A stretch of DNA of 64,000 nucleotides from Holosporales bacterium (GTDB lineage Bacteria; Pseudomonadota; Alphaproteobacteria; RUG11792): positions 5,288 to 69,287 of the forward strand of contig JAIRWL010000010.1 in assembly GCA_031268935.1 (NCBI GenBank), read 5' to 3'. Positions 46,945 to 57,407 of the stretch are shown here, in pieces (within the stretch, counting starts at the first letter, position 1; the number at the start of each line of letters is the position of its first letter). A program made the position numbers and the translations under genes. Under the pieces are notes generated by a model. It did no database searches and was not told where the DNA came from. It saw only the letters and a program-made list of their open reading frames with translations.

Positions 46945-47170
46945 TCAAATTGATCAAATTAAGGAGAAAAAAGAAATAAATCTAGAAATGTAAACGCTTA
47001 TTTAATTTATCTCGTTGCGTGATTTCATAGATGTTGCACAAAAGCAGCAAACGACAGAAATTTGGGCCGACGATCCGAATTCGTCGCGATCAAGCTTTAA
47101 CGAGTATACAAAATCTGGTAGACTGGATCATATAGAAATTGTTTTAACTTTTCGAAGGACGGACAGAGTT

Positions 47171-47632
47171 ATGAATAACAGAAGGATTTGGTTGGTGGCT
47201 CTCTCGGTTTCCGCTGGGTTGCTGGCTGCTTGTAATAGGACGTGCAAGATTGACAGCGAGAGTGGTATGGTCCCTGGATCGGCCGAGGATTTTGATACTA
47301 ATGTCCCTAACGCGGTTTATTTCGATTTTGACAAATCTAGCCTATCTGAGGCGGCGAAGAAGCGTGTCGCGGCTCAGGCTTGTTGGTTGAAGATGTACAG
47401 TGGAAAGAAGGCAACCGTCGCTGGGCATACGGACGTTCGTGGGACGGCCGAATATAACATGGCCCTCGGTGAGACTCGTGCCACTGCGGTTGCTAAGGAG
47501 CTGCGGGATGCTGGGGTCGATGGATCGAGGGTTACGACCGTGTCTTATGGAAAAGAGAGAGTTATCGACACTGGTACTGACGAGATGGACCATGCACGAA
47601 ATCGTCGAGCGGTCACGACTGTTGAGCCTTAA
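47171..47632 (+). CDS. pal: Peptidoglycan-associated lipoprotein (OmpA-C family)
   Basis: The ATG at 47171 gives MNNRRIWLVALSVSAGLLAAC (lipobox). OmpA-like region VYFDFDKSSL...GHTDVRGTAEYNMALGETRA...NRRAV. Confidence 0.85.
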   Translation: MNNRRIWLVALSVSAGLLAACNRTCKIDSESGMVPGSAEDFDTNVPNAVYFDFDKSSLSEAAKKRVAAQACWLKMYSGKKATVAGHTDVRGTAEYNMALGETRATAVAKELRDAGVDGSRVTTVSYGKERVIDTGTDEMDHARNRRAVTTVEP

Positions 47633-50443: not shown

Positions 50444-51247
50444 CTAATAACCAGAACGCATTGGGCGCCCATCTGGCCTCGGGCGGATCATGCCCTGAGG
50501 GGGTCGAAAATCCGGCTGACGGACGCCAGCTTGCCTAAATCCACCAGAGCTGGTTGGAGCTATTGGCCGGTCCTGTGGCTGATGGGGGCCTTGCTTGCCT
50601 TGATCCACTGGGTCTCCGTAACCCCCAGGAGATGTCGACCGACGGGGCCCCCCTCTATGACCTGCGGGACCCGCTCCCTGACCTGCTACCTTCCACTGAG
50701 GACCGGGGAAATATCCTTGCCCTCTACCCTGGCCCTGAGGGGGGACTTGCTTTGCTGGAGGCATAGCTGCTTCGTAACCTCCAGTTGGGGACGAGCTCCG
50801 GAGCCCACCACGATGTCCTCGTTGACCAGCTCCCTGGCCGGCTGCTTGTCCCTGGCGATGTCGGCCAGGTCCTCCTCCTGTCCGATATCCTCCCCTAACG
50901 TGAGGGCTTGTGTGTCTTTGGTGCGGACCACGACAGCCCGCAGCATCCATACCAGCCCCCGTAACCTCTGTGCTCCCCTGCTGCTGTCCTGCAGGAGCCG
51001 GTATGGAGGAGGAAAGAGGCGCTCCAGCTTGCCATCCTTGCCCCATGCCCCCTTGGATCGGCCCGTTTGGGGCACTGTGCTGTCCATCAGGCCCCCGTTT
51101 CATCTGCCCCCCTCTCTGCCCATACCCTGACCCATCTGATGGGGCGCCCCGTGCTGCAGCCGACTCAGGCTGAGGCGCTGCTGCCATCGTCTCAATGCTC
51201 AGCAAACCAGCAATTAAAAGAACTCTGTCAATTAACTTATTCACCAT
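50444..51247 (-). CDS. Secreted Gly/Gln/Pro/Arg-rich repeat protein (267 aa)
   Basis: N-terminus MVNKLIDRVLLIAGLLSIETMAAAP (signal peptide). Repeats AGQGAG.(R/A)GHRGG(L/P)R(S/R)S(S/T)SP(T/G)GGY. Transcribed divergently from tssB. Confidence 0.5.
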   Translation of the reverse strand: MVNKLIDRVLLIAGLLSIETMAAAPQPESAAARGAPSDGSGYGQRGGQMKRGPDGQHSAPNGPIQGGMGQGWQAGAPLSSSIPAPAGQQQGSTEVTGAGMDAAGCRGPHQRHTSPHVRGGYRTGGGPGRHRQGQAAGQGAGQRGHRGGLRSSSPTGGYEAAMPPAKQVPPQGQGRGQGYFPGPQWKVAGQGAGPAGHRGGPRRSTSPGGYGDPVDQGKQGPHQPQDRPIAPTSSGGFRQAGVRQPDFRPPQGMIRPRPDGRPMRSGY

Positions 51248-51491
51248 TCTTCACCCCTTATTATTTCCATGGTCTTCTGCATACTATTCTAACAGACAAA
51301 GATTGTGATTGCAAATGAACCGTGCTTCCTGCCACTTTTGGTGAATTTTTTTATGTGGAATAATCTTTTTATCTGAATCGCCTAAATTTCTCATTGATAA
51401 GTTAACTAATTTTAAAGATATTTTGTCTTAGTATGGCAATAGTGATGTAATCATAGGAAGAGTTTTGTTTTTAGATTTGAGGAATTCGTGA

Positions 51492-52043
51492 ATGGCGGAA
51501 AGCAGGCAGCATACTCTTGGAAGAGTTAGAAAGCCGAGAGTTCACATAACCTATGATGTCGAAATCGGTGATGCGATTGAAAAGAAGGAATTGCCGTTTA
51601 TTGTCGGGGTTTTAGCGGATCTTTCTGGTAATCCAGAACTCCCTCTTCCACCTATGAAGAACAGGAAATTTGTTGAGGTTGATCGTGATAACTTCGGGGA
51701 GATGATGGCTATCATTAATCCTCGATTAGTTATTAGGGTCCCCAACAAACTTTCTGAAGAGGTCCCAGAAATGAGCATTGAGCTGCTTTTTGAATGCATG
51801 GAGGATTTTGAGCCGCAAAATGTAGCGAAAAATATTCCCAGTTTGGCCGCGCTTTATACTCGAAGAAATGCCTTGAAGAACCTCATTACCAAGATGGATG
51901 GTAACGATGCCCTCGAGGCTCTGCTAACTCAGATTATGAAAAATAATGATAATCTGGATAAATTGAAAAAAGAGCTAGATGATCGTGGCGGTGAACCTGC
52001 TCCTGGTAGTACGGAAACGGCCGAGGAAACGACAGCAGAATGA
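51492..52043 (+). CDS. tssB: Type VI secretion sheath small subunit TssB/VipA
   Basis: 183 aa. PRVHITYDVEIGDAIEKKELPFIVGVLADLSG is the canonical TssB N-terminal signature. Confidence 0.9.
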   Translation: MAESRQHTLGRVRKPRVHITYDVEIGDAIEKKELPFIVGVLADLSGNPELPLPPMKNRKFVEVDRDNFGEMMAIINPRLVIRVPNKLSEEVPEMSIELLFECMEDFEPQNVAKNIPSLAALYTRRNALKNLITKMDGNDALEALLTQIMKNNDNLDKLKKELDDRGGEPAPGSTETAEETTAE

Positions 52044-52061
52044 GGTTATTGGAGAGAGAGA

Positions 52062-53528
52062 ATGGCCGATGAAATAATTGTCATACCGGAAGAAGCGAGC
52101 CTTCTTGATATTCTACTCCATGAAAAGAAAATGGCCAGATTTCCAGAGCAAGAGGATGCCGCTAGCGATTTATTATCCGCTCTTGTTGAAGAATTAAAAG
52201 CGCTAACAGAATCGCCGGCTGAGAGCGGTATCGTTCAATTTCTGATGCGGAGAATACTGGAGATTGACGAACTTCTTACATCTCAGATTAATGAAATTTT
52301 GCATCATCCTGATTTTCAAAAATTAGAAGGTTCTTGGAGAGGATTGCGGTACTTCGTAATGAATACAGAGACGAGTACGAGGATGAAAATCAGGGTAATG
52401 AACGCATCACTATCGGATCTTAGAGATGACCTGTCTAAAGCTATTGAATTCGATCAAAGCGCTCTATTTAAGAAAATTTATGAAGAAGAGTATGGAACTT
52501 TTGGTGGTTCTCCGTATTCATGTTTGATAGGGGATTTTGCGTTTACTAACCATCCACTAGATATTATGTTTTTGGAGCTAATGTCGGGCCTGGCGTCTGC
52601 GGCTCACACCCCATTTATCGCTTCTGTTTCGCCTCTGTTTTTCAACCTCGATAAATTCGAAGACCTGCCGCTTCCGAGAGATCTAGCGAAAGCTTTTGAA
52701 TCTCCGGACTATATTAAATGGAATTCTTTTCGAAATTCGGAAGATTCCAGGTATATAACATTACTTCTTCCGCGAATCCTTATGAGGCTTCCGTATGGCC
52801 CGAGTACTCTTCCCGTAGCAGAATTTAATTTTACTGAAGACGTTGGAATCGGAGATACGGAGAAGTTTTGTTGGGGTAATCCTGTGTATGCCATGGCCCA
52901 GAGGATTACGAATGCATTCGCCCTCTATAGCTGGACGGCGGCTATAAGGGGCGTCGAGGGAGGCGGAGTCGTCGAAGGATTACCGACCTATATCTTCAAA
53001 ACTTTAGAGGGCGATAAGACGGTCAAATGTCCGACCGAAGTAGCGATTACCGATCGGAGGGAAAAAGAGCTAAGTGATCTAGGATTTATTACTGTTTGCT
53101 ATTGCAAGGGCTCTGATTTTGCCGTCTTTTTTGGATGCCAAACGACGCAGAAACCGAAGGTTTATAACTTGGATGATGCTAATGCTAATGCGACAATTTC
53201 AGCTAGAGTGACTTATCTGCTGGCGGCTTCGAGATTTGCTCATTACATCAAGGTCATAATGAGGGATAAAATCGGGGTATTCTTGACGAAAGAAAATGTT
53301 GAACTATATCTTAACACTTGGCTGGCCTCCTATATCCTTTTAAATGATGATGCGCCGGCTAAAGTAAAGGCGGCCTATCCGCTGAGAGAAGGCCGAATAG
53401 ACGTTTACGATGTTCCAGGATCTCCAGGAGCTTATAGGGCGGTCATTTATCTCAGGCCTCATTTCCAGATGGAAGAGTTAACGGCATCGATTAGGCTTGT
53501 TGCAAATCTTCCGGGTAGAGCTGGGTAG
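52062..53528 (+). CDS. tssC: Type VI secretion sheath large subunit TssC/VipB
   Basis: 488 aa. WRGLRYFV, HTPFIASVSP, WGNPVYAMAQRITNAFALYSWTAAIRGVEGGG, EVAITDRREKELSDLGFI, SRFAHYIKVIMRDKIG. Confidence 0.9.
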   Translation: MADEIIVIPEEASLLDILLHEKKMARFPEQEDAASDLLSALVEELKALTESPAESGIVQFLMRRILEIDELLTSQINEILHHPDFQKLEGSWRGLRYFVMNTETSTRMKIRVMNASLSDLRDDLSKAIEFDQSALFKKIYEEEYGTFGGSPYSCLIGDFAFTNHPLDIMFLELMSGLASAAHTPFIASVSPLFFNLDKFEDLPLPRDLAKAFESPDYIKWNSFRNSEDSRYITLLLPRILMRLPYGPSTLPVAEFNFTEDVGIGDTEKFCWGNPVYAMAQRITNAFALYSWTAAIRGVEGGGVVEGLPTYIFKTLEGDKTVKCPTEVAITDRREKELSDLGFITVCYCKGSDFAVFFGCQTTQKPKVYNLDDANANATISARVTYLLAASRFAHYIKVIMRDKIGVFLTKENVELYLNTWLASYILLNDDAPAKVKAAYPLREGRIDVYDVPGSPGAYRAVIYLRPHFQMEELTASIRLVANLPGRAG

Positions 53529-53533
53529 ATGCT

Positions 53534-54715
53534 ATGGGGGGATTGAGATTTAAGTCAGTTATTTTGGCTTCGCTTATTACCTTGTCACCACTCTCTGTTT
53601 CCGTTGCCAAAAAATCAACTCAAACAGACCACAAAAAACTTGATCAGGATCCGATTGATCCTGAAAAACTTAGGGCTCTGACCAAGAAGCATATCGGAGC
53701 CGTTGTTCCCATATATATAACCCGAAATGGCGTGGATAAAGAAGACGGTAGAATTTTTAATCTAGCTGTTGTCCCGAAAAATGAGAGAAAACGACATAAT
53801 AATTTCGTGAAATCTGGAATTATCGTGTCGCCGCAGGGGCATATCCTCACGACGGCCGATGGTATCGAGCGAGGGGATCATATACTCGTTAACATAGGGG
53901 AAGGGGGCGTCGATGTTAGAGAGAAGGGGCAAAATACCTATGAGGCTGTAGTTATCGAAGTCTCGCCAGAATTAGGATTGGCTCTTTTGAAAATCGATCC
54001 CAGAGGAGGTGTAGCATTGCCGTTTATACCGATTGGAAATGCGCCTTCCTTGGTTGCCGGCCAACCGATCTCAGGGGTTGCTATGGGCCATGCCAAGGGT
54101 GATGTTTTCGTAGGGGTAGCATGTCAGGCGAATAAAAACAGTACCTTTGGGCCCTTCGCGATGCCCGCCGAAACGACCCCAATAAAGAAAGATGGTGCAT
54201 GGCAATTGCACATAGTGCAAACGGTAGGCAAGGGAGGATGGTTCGAGCTACATGGCGGGGTCCTAATTGATAGGAACGGGAGGGTGATTGGTCTGATCGT
54301 TGCGGGGGTGGATCAGTTTTACCTACCTGTGTTAACAGCCATCCCCGTGAGTATTGTCGCCAAGGTCCTGCGTACTGCGGTCCCTTCGCTCCTGAAAACT
54401 GCAGACACTGTGCATTTGGGGATAACCCCGTGTTTGAAGCCGGCCAAAACAATTGGAAAAGCCGGGCTAGAGGCCCTCGAATGGGATGTCGTGAATTATC
54501 CATCCTTGGTGGTCATCAAGTCTATTCAAGTTGGTTCTCCGGCCGATAACGCTGGCTTACTCCCTGGAGATGTCATCCTAAGAATAGGAGATGAAGAAGT
54601 TAAGAATCTCGCTACTTTCAAAAATCTAGTGAACGATACAATAGGGACCAATGCAGTCGTTTTCAAGGTCCTGAGAGACGGAAAAATAACAGAATTCGAA
54701 TTGAGTCTGGTATAA
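53534..54715 (+). CDS. HtrA/DegP-like trypsin-fold + PDZ protein, with the catalytic triad apparently substituted
   Basis: Signal peptide (FKSVILASLITLSPLSVSVA), trypsin-fold blocks alignable by eye to DegP, and a PDZ domain (GSPADNAGLLPGDVILRIGDEEV). The triad positions read D (LTTADG where DegP has LTNNHV), G (LGLALLKI where DegP has DIALLKI) and H (ELHGGVL where DegP has GNSGGAL). Confidence 0.65.
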   Translation: MGGLRFKSVILASLITLSPLSVSVAKKSTQTDHKKLDQDPIDPEKLRALTKKHIGAVVPIYITRNGVDKEDGRIFNLAVVPKNERKRHNNFVKSGIIVSPQGHILTTADGIERGDHILVNIGEGGVDVREKGQNTYEAVVIEVSPELGLALLKIDPRGGVALPFIPIGNAPSLVAGQPISGVAMGHAKGDVFVGVACQANKNSTFGPFAMPAETTPIKKDGAWQLHIVQTVGKGGWFELHGGVLIDRNGRVIGLIVAGVDQFYLPVLTAIPVSIVAKVLRTAVPSLLKTADTVHLGITPCLKPAKTIGKAGLEALEWDVVNYPSLVVIKSIQVGSPADNAGLLPGDVILRIGDEEVKNLATFKNLVNDTIGTNAVVFKVLRDGKITEFELSLV

Positions 54716-56473: not shown

Positions 56474-56548
<75 letters not shown>

Positions 56549-56747: not shown

Positions 56748-57407
56748 TTATGATGGTTTCATCTCCTTGAGGGCCTTATTTGCCACAGTGCCCGAGGTTA
56801 AATCCAGCGAGGTCACAATCGTTCCTCCCGACTTATGACCAGTAAGAGAAATAAAGTTCTGGGAGTATACCGTAATCCCCAGATAAGTGAATCCAATCAC
56901 AGCAACCTCACTAGAGCTGAAAATATCTATATAGACTATAGTGCATACCTGGAAAGTGGTTTGGCGCCGGACCGTCGGTTTAGAGGTTTCCGCACTCTGC
57001 GTCAGATAGACTATATCCATGAAGTGGATATATGCGATAGCTCCCTGTCCGAGTAATTGAAACAATGTGAGTATCAAATTGTTTTGGGGAACGACGAGAT
57101 AAACAGCCGAGGCGTACAACCCCACTGTGTGCCCCAGAACATTCTCACCAACGCTATGGCTGCTCCCCGCTAGATTCCCTTTAGCTCCAAGAATCCGGAC
57201 CACTTTGGATCCATCCGATCCGGCTGGGTCCGTCCAAATTGTCTCCAATTCTACCTTGGCGTTAGTATCCAGGCAAAAGCACACAACTCGAGGAGGGAGA
57301 GAGACCTGATCTCCCGACCTCACCATTTCTTCATACTCAATCAGATCTCCGAAAGGTCTGATCTCATCGGCCCAGCCTCTAGTTCCAGTGGGAGCTCTAC
57401 GGGTCAT
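56748..57407 (-). CDS. Hypothetical protein (219 aa)
   Basis: Intermediate-GC ORF with no signal peptide or recognisable motif. Confidence 0.4.
   Translation of the reverse strand: MTRRAPTGTRGWADEIRPFGDLIEYEEMVRSGDQVSLPPRVVCFCLDTNAKVELETIWTDPAGSDGSKVVRILGAKGNLAGSSHSVGENVLGHTVGLYASAVYLVVPQNNLILTLFQLLGQGAIAYIHFMDIVYLTQSAETSKPTVRRQTTFQVCTIVYIDIFSSSEVAVIGFTYLGITVYSQNFISLTGHKSGGTIVTSLDLTSGTVANKALKEMKPS

What the first reader, a model, noticed from the sequence alone, without database searches (positions are those of the whole stretch)
50444..53528. An isolated tssB-tssC sheath operon is transcribed divergently from a GC-rich secreted-protein gene
TssB and TssC are unambiguous, but none of the other core T6SS genes (hcp, vgrG, tssA, tssE-G, tssJ-M, clpV) lies within about 10 kb on either side. 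The 244-bp AT-rich intergenic region (51248-51491) is shared with the divergently oriented island gene 50444-51247, so co-regulation is possible. The surrounding island proteins carry Sec signal peptides, which canonical T6SS substrates lack. The T6SS is therefore probably not their direct export route. The relation between the sheath genes and the islands remains open.
Basis: partly seen in the sequence, partly recalled or inferred. Interest (0 to 1): 0.6.

Follow-up and report, generated by a model that had tools for sequence, protein, structure and literature searches.

The report
Sheath operon of a scattered T6SS
The two sheath genes are real and intact, but they are one piece of a type VI secretion system whose genes are spread over nine places in a tiny Holosporales endosymbiont genome, a layout already described for this bacterial order, and its "missing" tube gene lies only 3 kb away in unrecognisable form.

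Summary
tssB (51492-52043) and tssC (52062-53528) are confirmed, full-length and under strong purifying selection. They form a tight three-gene operon with a dead HtrA-like gene (53534-54715). This operon is conserved in every relative examined.

The genome is a 955-kb, 97%-complete Holosporales MAG; its closest relatives come from rumen and termite guts. It encodes 12 of the 13 T6SS core parts at nine separate loci on seven contigs:
- tssA, tssE, tssF, tssG, vgrG and tssK-L-M were found by family models.
- hcp and tssJ escape Pfam and NCBIfam and were recognised by profile comparison or predicted fold.
- Only ClpV is absent, and ClpB is absent too.

The GC-rich island gene upstream of tssB is not a neighbour of tssB in any of 11 relatives. 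T6SS loci are no nearer to GC islands than chance predicts (P = 0.32). tssB carries its own conserved upstream element.

Scattered T6SS genes are already published for Holosporales. This is therefore a further, more fragmented member of a known kind. It adds that the reportedly missing tube and lipoprotein parts are present in this family.

The parts
50444..51247 (-). GC-rich 'island' gene. It encodes a 267-aa Gly/Pro/Gln/Arg-rich low-complexity protein with a hydrophobic N-terminus. It is a chance neighbour, not part of the T6SS.
   Evidence: GC 0.616. No Pfam family. Translation. No homologue beside tssB in 19 relatives' loci by tblastn, and a different upstream gene in all 11 relatives mapped.
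51248..51491 (.). 244-bp AT-rich spacer. It holds back-to-back promoter-like sites for the island gene (minus strand, 51315-51286) and for tssB (plus strand, 51394-51422).
   Evidence: GC 0.316; the tssB-proximal part is 0.265. Consensus promoter scan; these are weak matches only.
51401..51431 (+). Conserved upstream element of the tssB operon (GTTAACTAATTTTAAAGATATTTTGTCTTAG; family consensus TTAACnnAATTTTAA...ATTT..TT.TA). Probably a promoter or regulator site that travels with the operon.
   Evidence: Alignable in 9 of the 12 family genomes aligned, although synonymous sites are saturated. It scores far above any other site in the genome: PWM 33.4 (the window's own copy was used to build the PWM) against 19.4 for the next best.
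51492..52043 (+). tssB (VipA), the small sheath subunit, 183 aa.
   Evidence: PF05591 at 1.2e-53. TIGR03358 at 178.5 bits, cut-off 97. 64-79% identical in family relatives.
52062..53528 (+). tssC (VipB), the large sheath subunit, 488 aa, full length.
   Evidence: PF05943 at 1e-125 and PF18945 at 1.5e-40. TIGR03355 at 638.7 bits. Present in 23 of 24 family genomes. pN about 0.10 against pS about 0.87-0.92 versus four relatives. 56-65% identical to Pseudomonas and Azospirillum TssC.
53534..54715 (+). HtrA/DegP-like PDZ protein (393 aa), the third gene of the operon. It starts 5 bp after tssC and occupies the position that hcp holds in other Holosporales.
Evidence: PF13365 at 7.8e-12 and PF13180 at 2.3e-12. 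Far below every HtrA equivalog cut-off. Syntenic after tssC in all 14 family loci.
56474..56548 (-). tRNA-Val(GAC), immediately downstream of hcp on the same strand.
   Evidence: ARAGORN.
56748..57407 (-). hcp (tssD), a highly divergent inner-tube protein of 219 aa. It has its own Shine-Dalgarno sequence (AAAGGAAAG) and a promoter-like site at 57461-57434.
   Evidence: No Pfam or NCBIfam hit. Sole hit in the genome for an HMM of family homologues built without its own genus, E 2e-18. hhalign against the post-tssC Hcp group of other Holosporales gives 97.2% probability, E 2.9e-11. The joint profile hits PDB Hcp 3v4h at 4.3e-5. AlphaFold2 model has pLDDT 75.7 and pTM 0.74. The Foldseek top 50 are all Hcp structures or Hcp1-fusion constructs, best E 1.6e-9, target-normalised TM 0.7-0.78. 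Homologues sit next to tssK in G014 and G010, and upstream of dnaJ-tssE in G001. Start context.

Best explanation
The tssB-tssC-(dead HtrA) operon is the sheath module of one complete but dispersed T6SS of canonical (T6SS-i-like) gene content that lacks ClpV. The host is a genome-reduced Holosporales endosymbiont of gut origin.

Shown:
- The genome encodes TssA (C2:12858-13922), TssB and TssC (window), Hcp (window 56748-57407), TssE (C19:54495-54872, just after dnaJ), TssF (C5:86239-88056), TssG (C9:8465-9598), VgrG (C13:2603-4765), a TssJ-fold lipoprotein (C8:2243-2734) and TssK-TssL-TssM (C27:26832-33619).
- All are intact ORFs. Each is flanked by housekeeping genes or lineage-specific exported-protein genes, not by other T6SS genes.
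- Almost all are conserved across the family.

Inferred:
- These parts assemble the usual machine. TssJLM forms the membrane complex, TssEFGK plus VgrG the baseplate, Hcp the tube and TssBC the contractile sheath, with TssA as cap.
- The machine fires into the eukaryotic host cell or its vacuole membrane, as is assumed for other Holosporales.
- Because neither ClpV nor ClpB exists in this genome, contracted sheaths must be cleared more slowly by another route, such as Lon, ClpXP or dilution. The machine may therefore work at low frequency.
- Genome rearrangement during reductive evolution broke the ancestral Holosporales blocks ([tssB-tssC-hcp(-tssE)], [tssG-tssF], [tssK-L-M-tssA]) further apart. 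It left tssB next to an unrelated GC-rich island gene by chance.
- The operon is driven by its own conserved upstream element.
For: Sheath genes pass equivalog cut-offs. TssC is under strong purifying selection.

Other core parts in this genome:
- TssM, TIGR03348 at 1.2e-58, 1526-aa ORF.
- TssK at 1.7e-47, over the cut-off.
- TssL, DotU at 2.4e-22.
- TssF at 8e-123.
- VgrG at 2.4e-127, with GPD, OB and gp5_C domains.
- TssG at 1.3e-45.
- TssE at 7.6e-10 / 5e-10, below the cut-off.
- TssA, ImpA_N at 1e-25.
- Hcp by profile-profile comparison and predicted fold.
- TssJ by predicted fold only: pLDDT 87.8, and the top 8 Foldseek hits are all TssJ (4a1r, 3zhn, 6ixh_A, 4y7o_C; E 7e-5 to 4.5e-3).

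Family-wide conservation: TssC 23/24, TssM 31/31, TssK 30/31, TssF 28/31, VgrG 27/31, TssG 27/31, TssE 27/31, TssA 28/31.

Published precedent: Holosporales T6SS genes sit at four or more loci and are transcribed in Ca. Bodocaedibacter (PMC8163844). The T6SS is conserved in almost all Holosporineae, even the smallest genomes (PMC11909080).
Against:
- ClpV is absent and ClpB is absent from this genome.
- The periplasmic C-terminal part of TssM matches no IcmF model.
- TssE and TssM score below the curated cut-offs.
- Hcp of this genus is only 15-22% identical even to same-genus copies. That could mean relaxed constraint.
- The TssJ call rests on a predicted fold alone, with no sequence match.
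- The assembly has 32 contigs, so the true distances between loci on different contigs are unknown.
Confidence: 0.75

Rival explanations
1. The system is a decaying remnant. In this genus the T6SS is no longer functional, and tssBC persist only because loss is slow, or because the sheath has been put to some other, non-secretory use.
For: There is no ClpV and no ClpB. Hcp is extremely diverged within the genus, 15-22% identity, while TssC stays at 84%. The TssK, VgrG and TssE scores of this genus are among the lowest in the family. The genome is under reductive evolution and contains broken genes elsewhere (earlier notes).
Against: All twelve ORFs are intact with no internal stops. TssC has pN/pS of about 0.11 with saturated synonymous sites. 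In a 955-kb genome, useless genes totalling more than 13 kb would be expected to have decayed. The Hcp ORF keeps a confident Hcp-like barrel in the model and a good ribosome-binding site. ClpV is absent from the whole family, and published Holosporales inventories do not list it, so its absence is not a recent loss.
Confidence: 0.12
2. One reading: tssBC and the divergent GC-rich island gene are co-regulated from the shared spacer, and the T6SS is functionally tied to the island-encoded exported proteins.
For: The genes are back to back with a 244-bp AT-rich spacer and promoter-like sites in both directions. GC-rich exported-protein genes also lie right beside tssA and tssF.
Against: The neighbour upstream of tssB differs in all 11 relatives mapped, including one of the same genus, and none is GC-rich. 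The island protein has no homologue in any tssC flank. Islands cover 14% of the genome in 110 segments; 4 of 8 T6SS loci within 1 kb compares with 2.9 expected by chance, P = 0.32. The conserved tssB element lies in the tssB-proximal half of the spacer and is found with unrelated upstream genes.
Confidence: 0.08

Closest known systems
Dispersed T6SS of Paracaedibacteraceae, Caedimonadaceae and Ca. Bodocaedibacter vickermanii (Holosporales; Midha et al. 2021, PMC8163844)
   Same: It belongs to the same order. It has the same core set without ClpV. The genes are split over several loci, each embedded among housekeeping genes. Hcp is very divergent, and TssJ is hard to detect. In nine other Holosporales MAGs I found tssB-tssC followed by a roughly 190-aa divergent Hcp, in most of them with tssE next.
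   Different: Here the published blocks are broken further:
- hcp has left the sheath operon and a dead HtrA-like gene takes its place.
- tssF and tssG are separated.
- tssA is not behind tssM.
- tssE follows dnaJ.
This gives nine loci instead of about four. ClpB is also absent.
Canonical T6SS-i clusters, such as the Pseudomonas and Azospirillum loci recovered as TssC relatives
   Same: TssC is 56-65% identical. TssB, F, G, K, L, M, A and VgrG are recognised by the same curated family models. Hcp and TssJ have the same predicted folds.
   Different: The canonical system is a single cluster of 13 or more genes with ClpV. Here there is no cluster and no ClpV. The periplasmic domain of TssM, Hcp and TssJ are all diverged beyond family-model detection.
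Francisella T6SS (my own knowledge, not tested here)
   Same: It is an intracellular bacterium whose T6SS lacks ClpV and whose tube protein is unrecognisable by sequence.
   Different: Francisella uses ClpB to disassemble the sheath and keeps its genes in one island. This genome has no ClpB, and its sheath is of the canonical T6SS-i type.

Membership tests
T6SS (canonical 13 core components) | TssB and TssC contractile sheath | tested here: met
   TIGR03358 at 178.5 bits and TIGR03355 at 638.7 bits, both over the equivalog cut-offs. Pfam hits.
T6SS (canonical 13 core components) | Hcp (TssD) inner tube | tested here: met
   PF05638 gave no hit in any of 31 family genomes. However, ORF 56748-57407 is homologous to the Holosporales post-tssC Hcp group (hhalign 97.2%). 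The joint profile hits PDB Hcp. The AlphaFold2 model matches only Hcp structures. Hexamer formation was not tested.
T6SS (canonical 13 core components) | Baseplate: TssE, TssF, TssG and TssK | tested here: met
   TssF at 8e-123. TssG at 1.3e-45. TssK at 1.7e-47. TssE at 7.6e-10 with TIGR03357 and 1.4e-5 with PF04965, both under the cut-off.
T6SS (canonical 13 core components) | VgrG (TssI) spike | tested here: met
   TIGR03361 at 2.4e-127, over the cut-off. Phage_GPD, Phage_base_V and Gp5_trimer_C domains are present.
T6SS (canonical 13 core components) | Membrane complex: TssL and TssM | tested here: met
   DotU at 2.4e-22. IcmF-related_N at 1.5e-46 and TIGR03348 at 7e-59, which is below the cut-off and covers the N-terminal third only. 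The C-terminal domains were not recognised.
T6SS (canonical 13 core components) | TssJ outer-membrane lipoprotein | tested here: inconclusive
   No Pfam, NCBIfam or PDB-sequence hit. However, lipoprotein C8:2243-2734 has a confident model (pLDDT 87.8) whose top 8 Foldseek hits are all TssJ. One homologue is named a T6SS component by JGI. It is not adjacent to T6SS genes in the one relative examined.
T6SS (canonical 13 core components) | TssA cap protein | tested here: met
   PF06812 at 1e-25, over the cut-off, at C2:12858-13922.
T6SS (canonical 13 core components) | ClpV (TssH) sheath-recycling ATPase | tested here: not met
   TIGR03345 has its best hits in this genome at 8e-5 and 2.5e-4, on an 814-aa and a 425-aa ORF; I read the 814-aa ORF as Lon from its sequence. 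No ORF carries a double Walker-A motif of the ClpB type. The 12 of 31 family genomes with strong hits carry ClpB; the one scanned passes TIGR03346 at 1250 bits (cut-off 1232) and fails ClpV at 793 bits (cut-off 885).
T6SS (canonical 13 core components) | Genes organised in one cluster | tested here: not met
   The genes lie at nine loci on seven contigs. Each is flanked by non-T6SS genes within its contig.
Holosporales-type dispersed T6SS (PMC8163844) | Core genes at four or more loci, without ClpV, with a divergent Hcp | tested here: met
   See the rows above. Relatives are named Holosporales, Holosporaceae or Paracaedibacteraceae MAGs.
Holosporales-type dispersed T6SS (PMC8163844) | Conserved blocks [tssB-tssC-hcp], [tssG-tssF], [tssK-tssL-tssM-tssA] | tested here: not met
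   In this family the blocks are tssB-tssC-dHtrA, with tssF and tssG on different contigs, tssK-L-M without tssA, and hcp elsewhere.

The most novel reading that the evidence does not exclude
This gut Holosporales family runs a T6SS with no ClpV. In this genus there is no ClpB either. A catalytically dead, exported HtrA-like protein has taken hcp's place in the sheath operon. Within this one genus the tube protein has diverged to about 20% identity while the sheath stays 84% identical. This would point to a modified firing or recycling cycle, or to host-driven diversifying selection on the secreted tube protein. It would also mean that the 'non-standard, TssD/TssJ-less' T6SS described for Holosporineae is in fact structurally complete.
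Probability: 0.25. Interest if true: 0.6.

Novelty: new member of a known kind. Interest (0 to 1): 0.35.

Why it matters
The T6SS is the leading candidate for how Holosporales endosymbionts manipulate their protist hosts. A 2025 review calls it 'non-standard' because the tube (TssD) and lipoprotein (TssJ) genes seem to be missing (PMC11909080). In this uncharacterised gut family both parts are present but diverged beyond family models, and the machine lacks only ClpV. That gives concrete genes to test. It also shows that operon structure can be almost completely dissolved while every part is retained. For the finding as posed, an isolated sheath operon tied to GC islands, the answer is ordinary. 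It is one fragment of a known dispersed system, and the island neighbour is coincidental.

Tried and rejected
- phmmer with TssE and post-tssC proteins of distant Holosporales against all ORFs of the genome found nothing useful.
- PF05638 found nothing in 31 family genomes.
- tblastn of the Hcp-like protein against the tssC flanks of 19 relatives found nothing. The gene is not syntenic with tssC elsewhere.
- The word-based homologue search for the Hcp-like protein returned only the genome's own copy.
- I looked for a shared regulon motif by scanning a PWM of the conserved tssB upstream element across the whole genome. No convincing second site turned up before any other T6SS gene. The best was a weak 14.7-bit site about 250 nt upstream of tssG.
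- I checked whether TssM (1526 aa) is a TssM-TssA fusion. It is not, because TssA is a separate gene on C2.
- I checked whether the ClpB-like genes in the family are ClpV. The one scanned is ClpB.
- The PDB sequence search with the TssJ-candidate profile gave no TssJ hit.
- The deubiquitinase-like protein of relative G010 has no homologue in this genome.
Full report
**Observation**

The ORFs at 51492-52043 and 52062-53528 are TssB and TssC beyond doubt.
- TssB matches PF05591 at 1.2e-53.
- TssC matches PF05943 at 1e-125 and PF18945 at 1.5e-40.
- Both pass NCBI's equivalog cut-offs: TIGR03358 at 178.5 bits against 97, and TIGR03355 at 638.7 bits against 271.
- Both cover their models end to end.
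- The spacer 51248-51491 has GC 0.316, and the divergent gene 50444-51247 has GC 0.616.
- That gene encodes a 267-aa Gly/Pro/Gln/Arg-rich low-complexity protein with a hydrophobic N-terminus and no Pfam family.

This part of the finding stands.

**The operon**

tssC is followed after 5 bp by a 393-aa HtrA-like PDZ protein (PF13365 at 7.8e-12, PF13180 at 2.3e-12). It falls far below every HtrA equivalog cut-off. The order tssB-tssC-HtrA-like is kept in all 14 family loci I mapped, while the genes outside those three differ from genome to genome.

TssC has pN of about 0.10 and pS of about 0.87-0.92 (saturated) against four relatives. It is 56-65% identical to the TssC of free-living Pseudomonas and Azospirillum.

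**The organism**

- The window lies on contig C5 of a 954,858-bp assembly in 32 contigs, estimated 96.7% complete.
- The nearest TssC relatives are MAGs labelled Holosporales, Holosporaceae or Alphaproteobacteria. They come from rumen, goat rumen and roe-deer rectum samples, and from a MAG series that I recognise as termite-gut derived (my own knowledge; the record titles do not state the source).
- A 2025 review mentions an uncharacterised gut-derived clade, from termites and an antelope among others, within the Paracaedibacteraceae (PMC11909080).

| Part | Place in G000 | Evidence | Family genomes with a match |
|---|---|---|---|
| TssM | C27:26832-31412, 1526 aa | TIGR03348 at 1.2e-58 | 31/31 |
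| TssK | C27:32222-33619 | 1.7e-47, over cut-off | 30/31 |
| TssL | between TssK and TssM | DotU at 2.4e-22 | not counted |
| TssF | C5:86239-88056 | 8e-123 | 28/31 |
| VgrG | C13:2603-4765 | 2.4e-127 | 27/31 |
| TssG | C9:8465-9598 | 1.3e-45 | 27/31 |
| TssE | C19:54495-54872, directly after dnaJ | 7.6e-10, below cut-off | 27/31 |
| TssA | C2:12858-13922 | ImpA_N at 1e-25 | 28/31 |

- tssF lies 17 kb beyond the window end.
- Every one of these ORFs is uninterrupted.
- Each is flanked inside its contig by genes that are not T6SS genes. From their sequences I read these as DsbA-like, response regulator, MutL, RsmE, NrdD, LysS, DapA, DapF, IspG, UvrA and UbiA-like.
- The dispersion is therefore real and not an effect of contig breaks.

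**ClpV**

TIGR03345 finds nothing better than 8e-5 in this genome. That hit falls on an 814-aa ORF that I read as Lon; a second hit at 2.5e-4 falls on a 425-aa ORF on C25. A motif scan finds no ClpB-type double-AAA ORF. Twelve of 31 family genomes have a strong hit. The one I scanned passes the ClpB equivalog (1250 bits, cut-off 1232) and fails ClpV (793 bits, cut-off 885). ClpV is therefore absent from the family, and this genome lacks ClpB as well.

**Hcp**

PF05638 hits nothing in any of the 31 genomes. The path to the gene was as follows.
- In nine other Holosporales MAGs, tssB-tssC is followed by an ORF of 171-212 aa, and in most of them tssE comes next. Two of those ORFs reach PF05638 weakly, at 2e-4 and 2e-3.
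- An HMM of the nine gave one candidate in this genome, at E 0.029: the ORF at window 56748-57407, minus strand.
- That ORF has diverged homologues of 200-240 aa in 18 of 31 family genomes. In G014 and G010 they lie near tssK (adjacent in G014). In G001 the order is hcp-dnaJ-tssE on one strand.
- An HMM built only from homologues outside this genus finds the window ORF as the single hit in the genome, at 2e-18.
- Profile-profile comparison with the nine post-tssC proteins gives 97.2% probability, E 2.9e-11.
- The joint profile hits PDB Hcp entries: 3v4h at 4.3e-5 and 9qpe at 0.021.
- The AlphaFold2 model has pLDDT 75.7 and pTM 0.74. It matches only Hcp structures or Hcp1-fusion constructs in the Foldseek top 50: 4w64 at 1.6e-9, 1y12 at 2.3e-8, target-normalised TM 0.7-0.78.
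- The ATG at 57407 has an AAAGGAAAG ribosome-binding site. The N-terminus aligns with the homologues, so the 219-aa form is preferred over the gene caller's 151-aa form.

**TssJ**

I listed the lipobox-bearing ORFs and scanned seven of them with Pfam. Six have ordinary identities that I assign from their domain hits: Pal, a 17-kDa antigen, BamE, a BON-domain protein, RlpA and NlpD.

The seventh, C8:2243-2734, has no family match. It is 55-86% conserved across gut Holosporales, and one homologue is named a T6SS component by JGI. Its model (pLDDT 87.8) has TssJ structures as all of its top eight hits: 4a1r, 3zhn, 6ixh_A and 4y7o_C, at E 7e-5 to 4.5e-3 and TM 0.57-0.67. Below those, the matches drop sharply to unrelated folds. 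No sequence-level support exists, and the gene is not next to T6SS genes in the one relative examined. I call it probable, not proven.

**Relation to the GC-rich islands**

- The gene upstream of tssB differs in all 11 relatives mapped. It has ordinary GC content and either orientation, and this holds even in the same genus.
- The island protein has no homologue in any of those flanks.
- Genome-wide, GC-rich segments (at least 0.53 GC over at least 600 bp) cover 14% of the genome in 110 pieces.
- Four of eight T6SS loci lie within 1 kb of one, against 2.9 expected for random placement (P = 0.32).
- About 60-90 nt upstream of the tssB start there is an element, TTAACnnAATTTTAA...ATTT..TT.TA (window 51401-51431). 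It is alignable in 9 of the 12 genomes despite saturated silent sites. Its PWM score in this genome (33.4, self included) is far above the next best site (19.4).

The operon thus carries its own control region, and the shared spacer is a product of rearrangement.

**What is known**

Midha et al. [quoted passage not shown] They add that the genes are transcribed, and that an Hcp-like and a TssJ-like gene were found only by InterProScan. The 2025 review (PMC11909080) calls the Holosporineae T6SS probably non-standard because TssD and TssJ appear to be lacking.

The present case is a further member of this kind, with these differences:
- the published blocks are broken up more (nine loci);
- hcp has been displaced from the sheath operon by the dead HtrA-like gene;
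- ClpB is gone as well.

**Mechanism**

Shown: gene content, intactness, conservation, and fold assignments.

Inferred from the established T6SS model:
- TssJLM anchors a TssEFGK-VgrG baseplate.
- Hcp polymerises inside a TssBC sheath under a TssA cap.
- Contraction drives VgrG and Hcp into the host cell or vacuole membrane.
- Without ClpV or ClpB, recycling of the sheath must be slow or handled by another protease or unfoldase.

**Unexplained**

The three Hcp copies of this genus (G000, G005, G001) are 15-22% identical to each other and to all others. Other genera share 45-76%, and TssC of G000 and G005 is 84% identical. I could not distinguish relaxed constraint from diversifying selection.

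**Verdict**

The finding is one fragment of a known type of dispersed T6SS, and the island neighbour is coincidental. It has modest added value: Hcp and probably TssJ exist in this family, and only ClpV is missing.

Noticed in passing
window 56748-57407, with L125 (G005) and L127 (G001): The Hcp-like proteins of the three genomes of this genus are only 15-22% identical to each other. Other genera of the family share 45-76%, and the sheath protein is 84% identical within the genus. This is an unusually fast-evolving tube protein.
   Followed up: partly
G000 contig C8:2243-2734 (outside the window; protein P0004): A conserved orphan lipoprotein next to a 17-kDa-antigen-like lipoprotein, and next to dnaA in a relative, has a confident predicted TssJ fold but no sequence-model hit.
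   Followed up: yes
L133:4964-7144 (relative G010, between hcp and tssK): A 726-aa protein with a eukaryote-type ubiquitin C-terminal hydrolase domain (PF00443 at 2.8e-8) sits between the Hcp-like gene and tssK. It is a plausible T6SS effector aimed at the host's ubiquitin system. This genome has no homologue.
   Followed up: partly
G000 C19:53291-54872 and L135:5519-8127 (G001): tssE sits directly downstream of dnaJ in both genomes. In G001 the Hcp-like gene lies just upstream of dnaJ on the same strand, giving an odd hcp-dnaJ-tssE arrangement.
   Followed up: partly
G000 C27:26832-31412 (TssM): TssM is about 1500 aa in the family genomes with a complete gene, some 350 aa longer than the 1168-position TIGR03348 model. 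Only its N-terminal third matches any IcmF model. The C-terminus carries a Lys/Glu/Ser-rich low-complexity tail.
   Followed up: no
window 47171-47632: The ORF listed as 47015-47632 is, from an internal start, a 153-aa Pal-type lipoprotein (OmpA family at 3.7e-19) with a lipobox. It is an ordinary envelope gene 4 kb upstream of tssB.
   Followed up: yes
G000 C2:11339-12763 and C5:88192-89010: GC-rich exported-protein genes lie immediately beside tssA and tssF as well. However, the proximity of T6SS loci to such islands is not above chance genome-wide (P = 0.32).
   Followed up: yes
L016:1467-3392 (G039), with long open frames at the TssC hits of G019, L095 and L075: In some other Holosporales, TssB and TssC appear fused into one ORF of 641-684 aa. 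For L016 both VipA and VipB domains lie in one protein; the others are judged by ORF length only.
   Followed up: no
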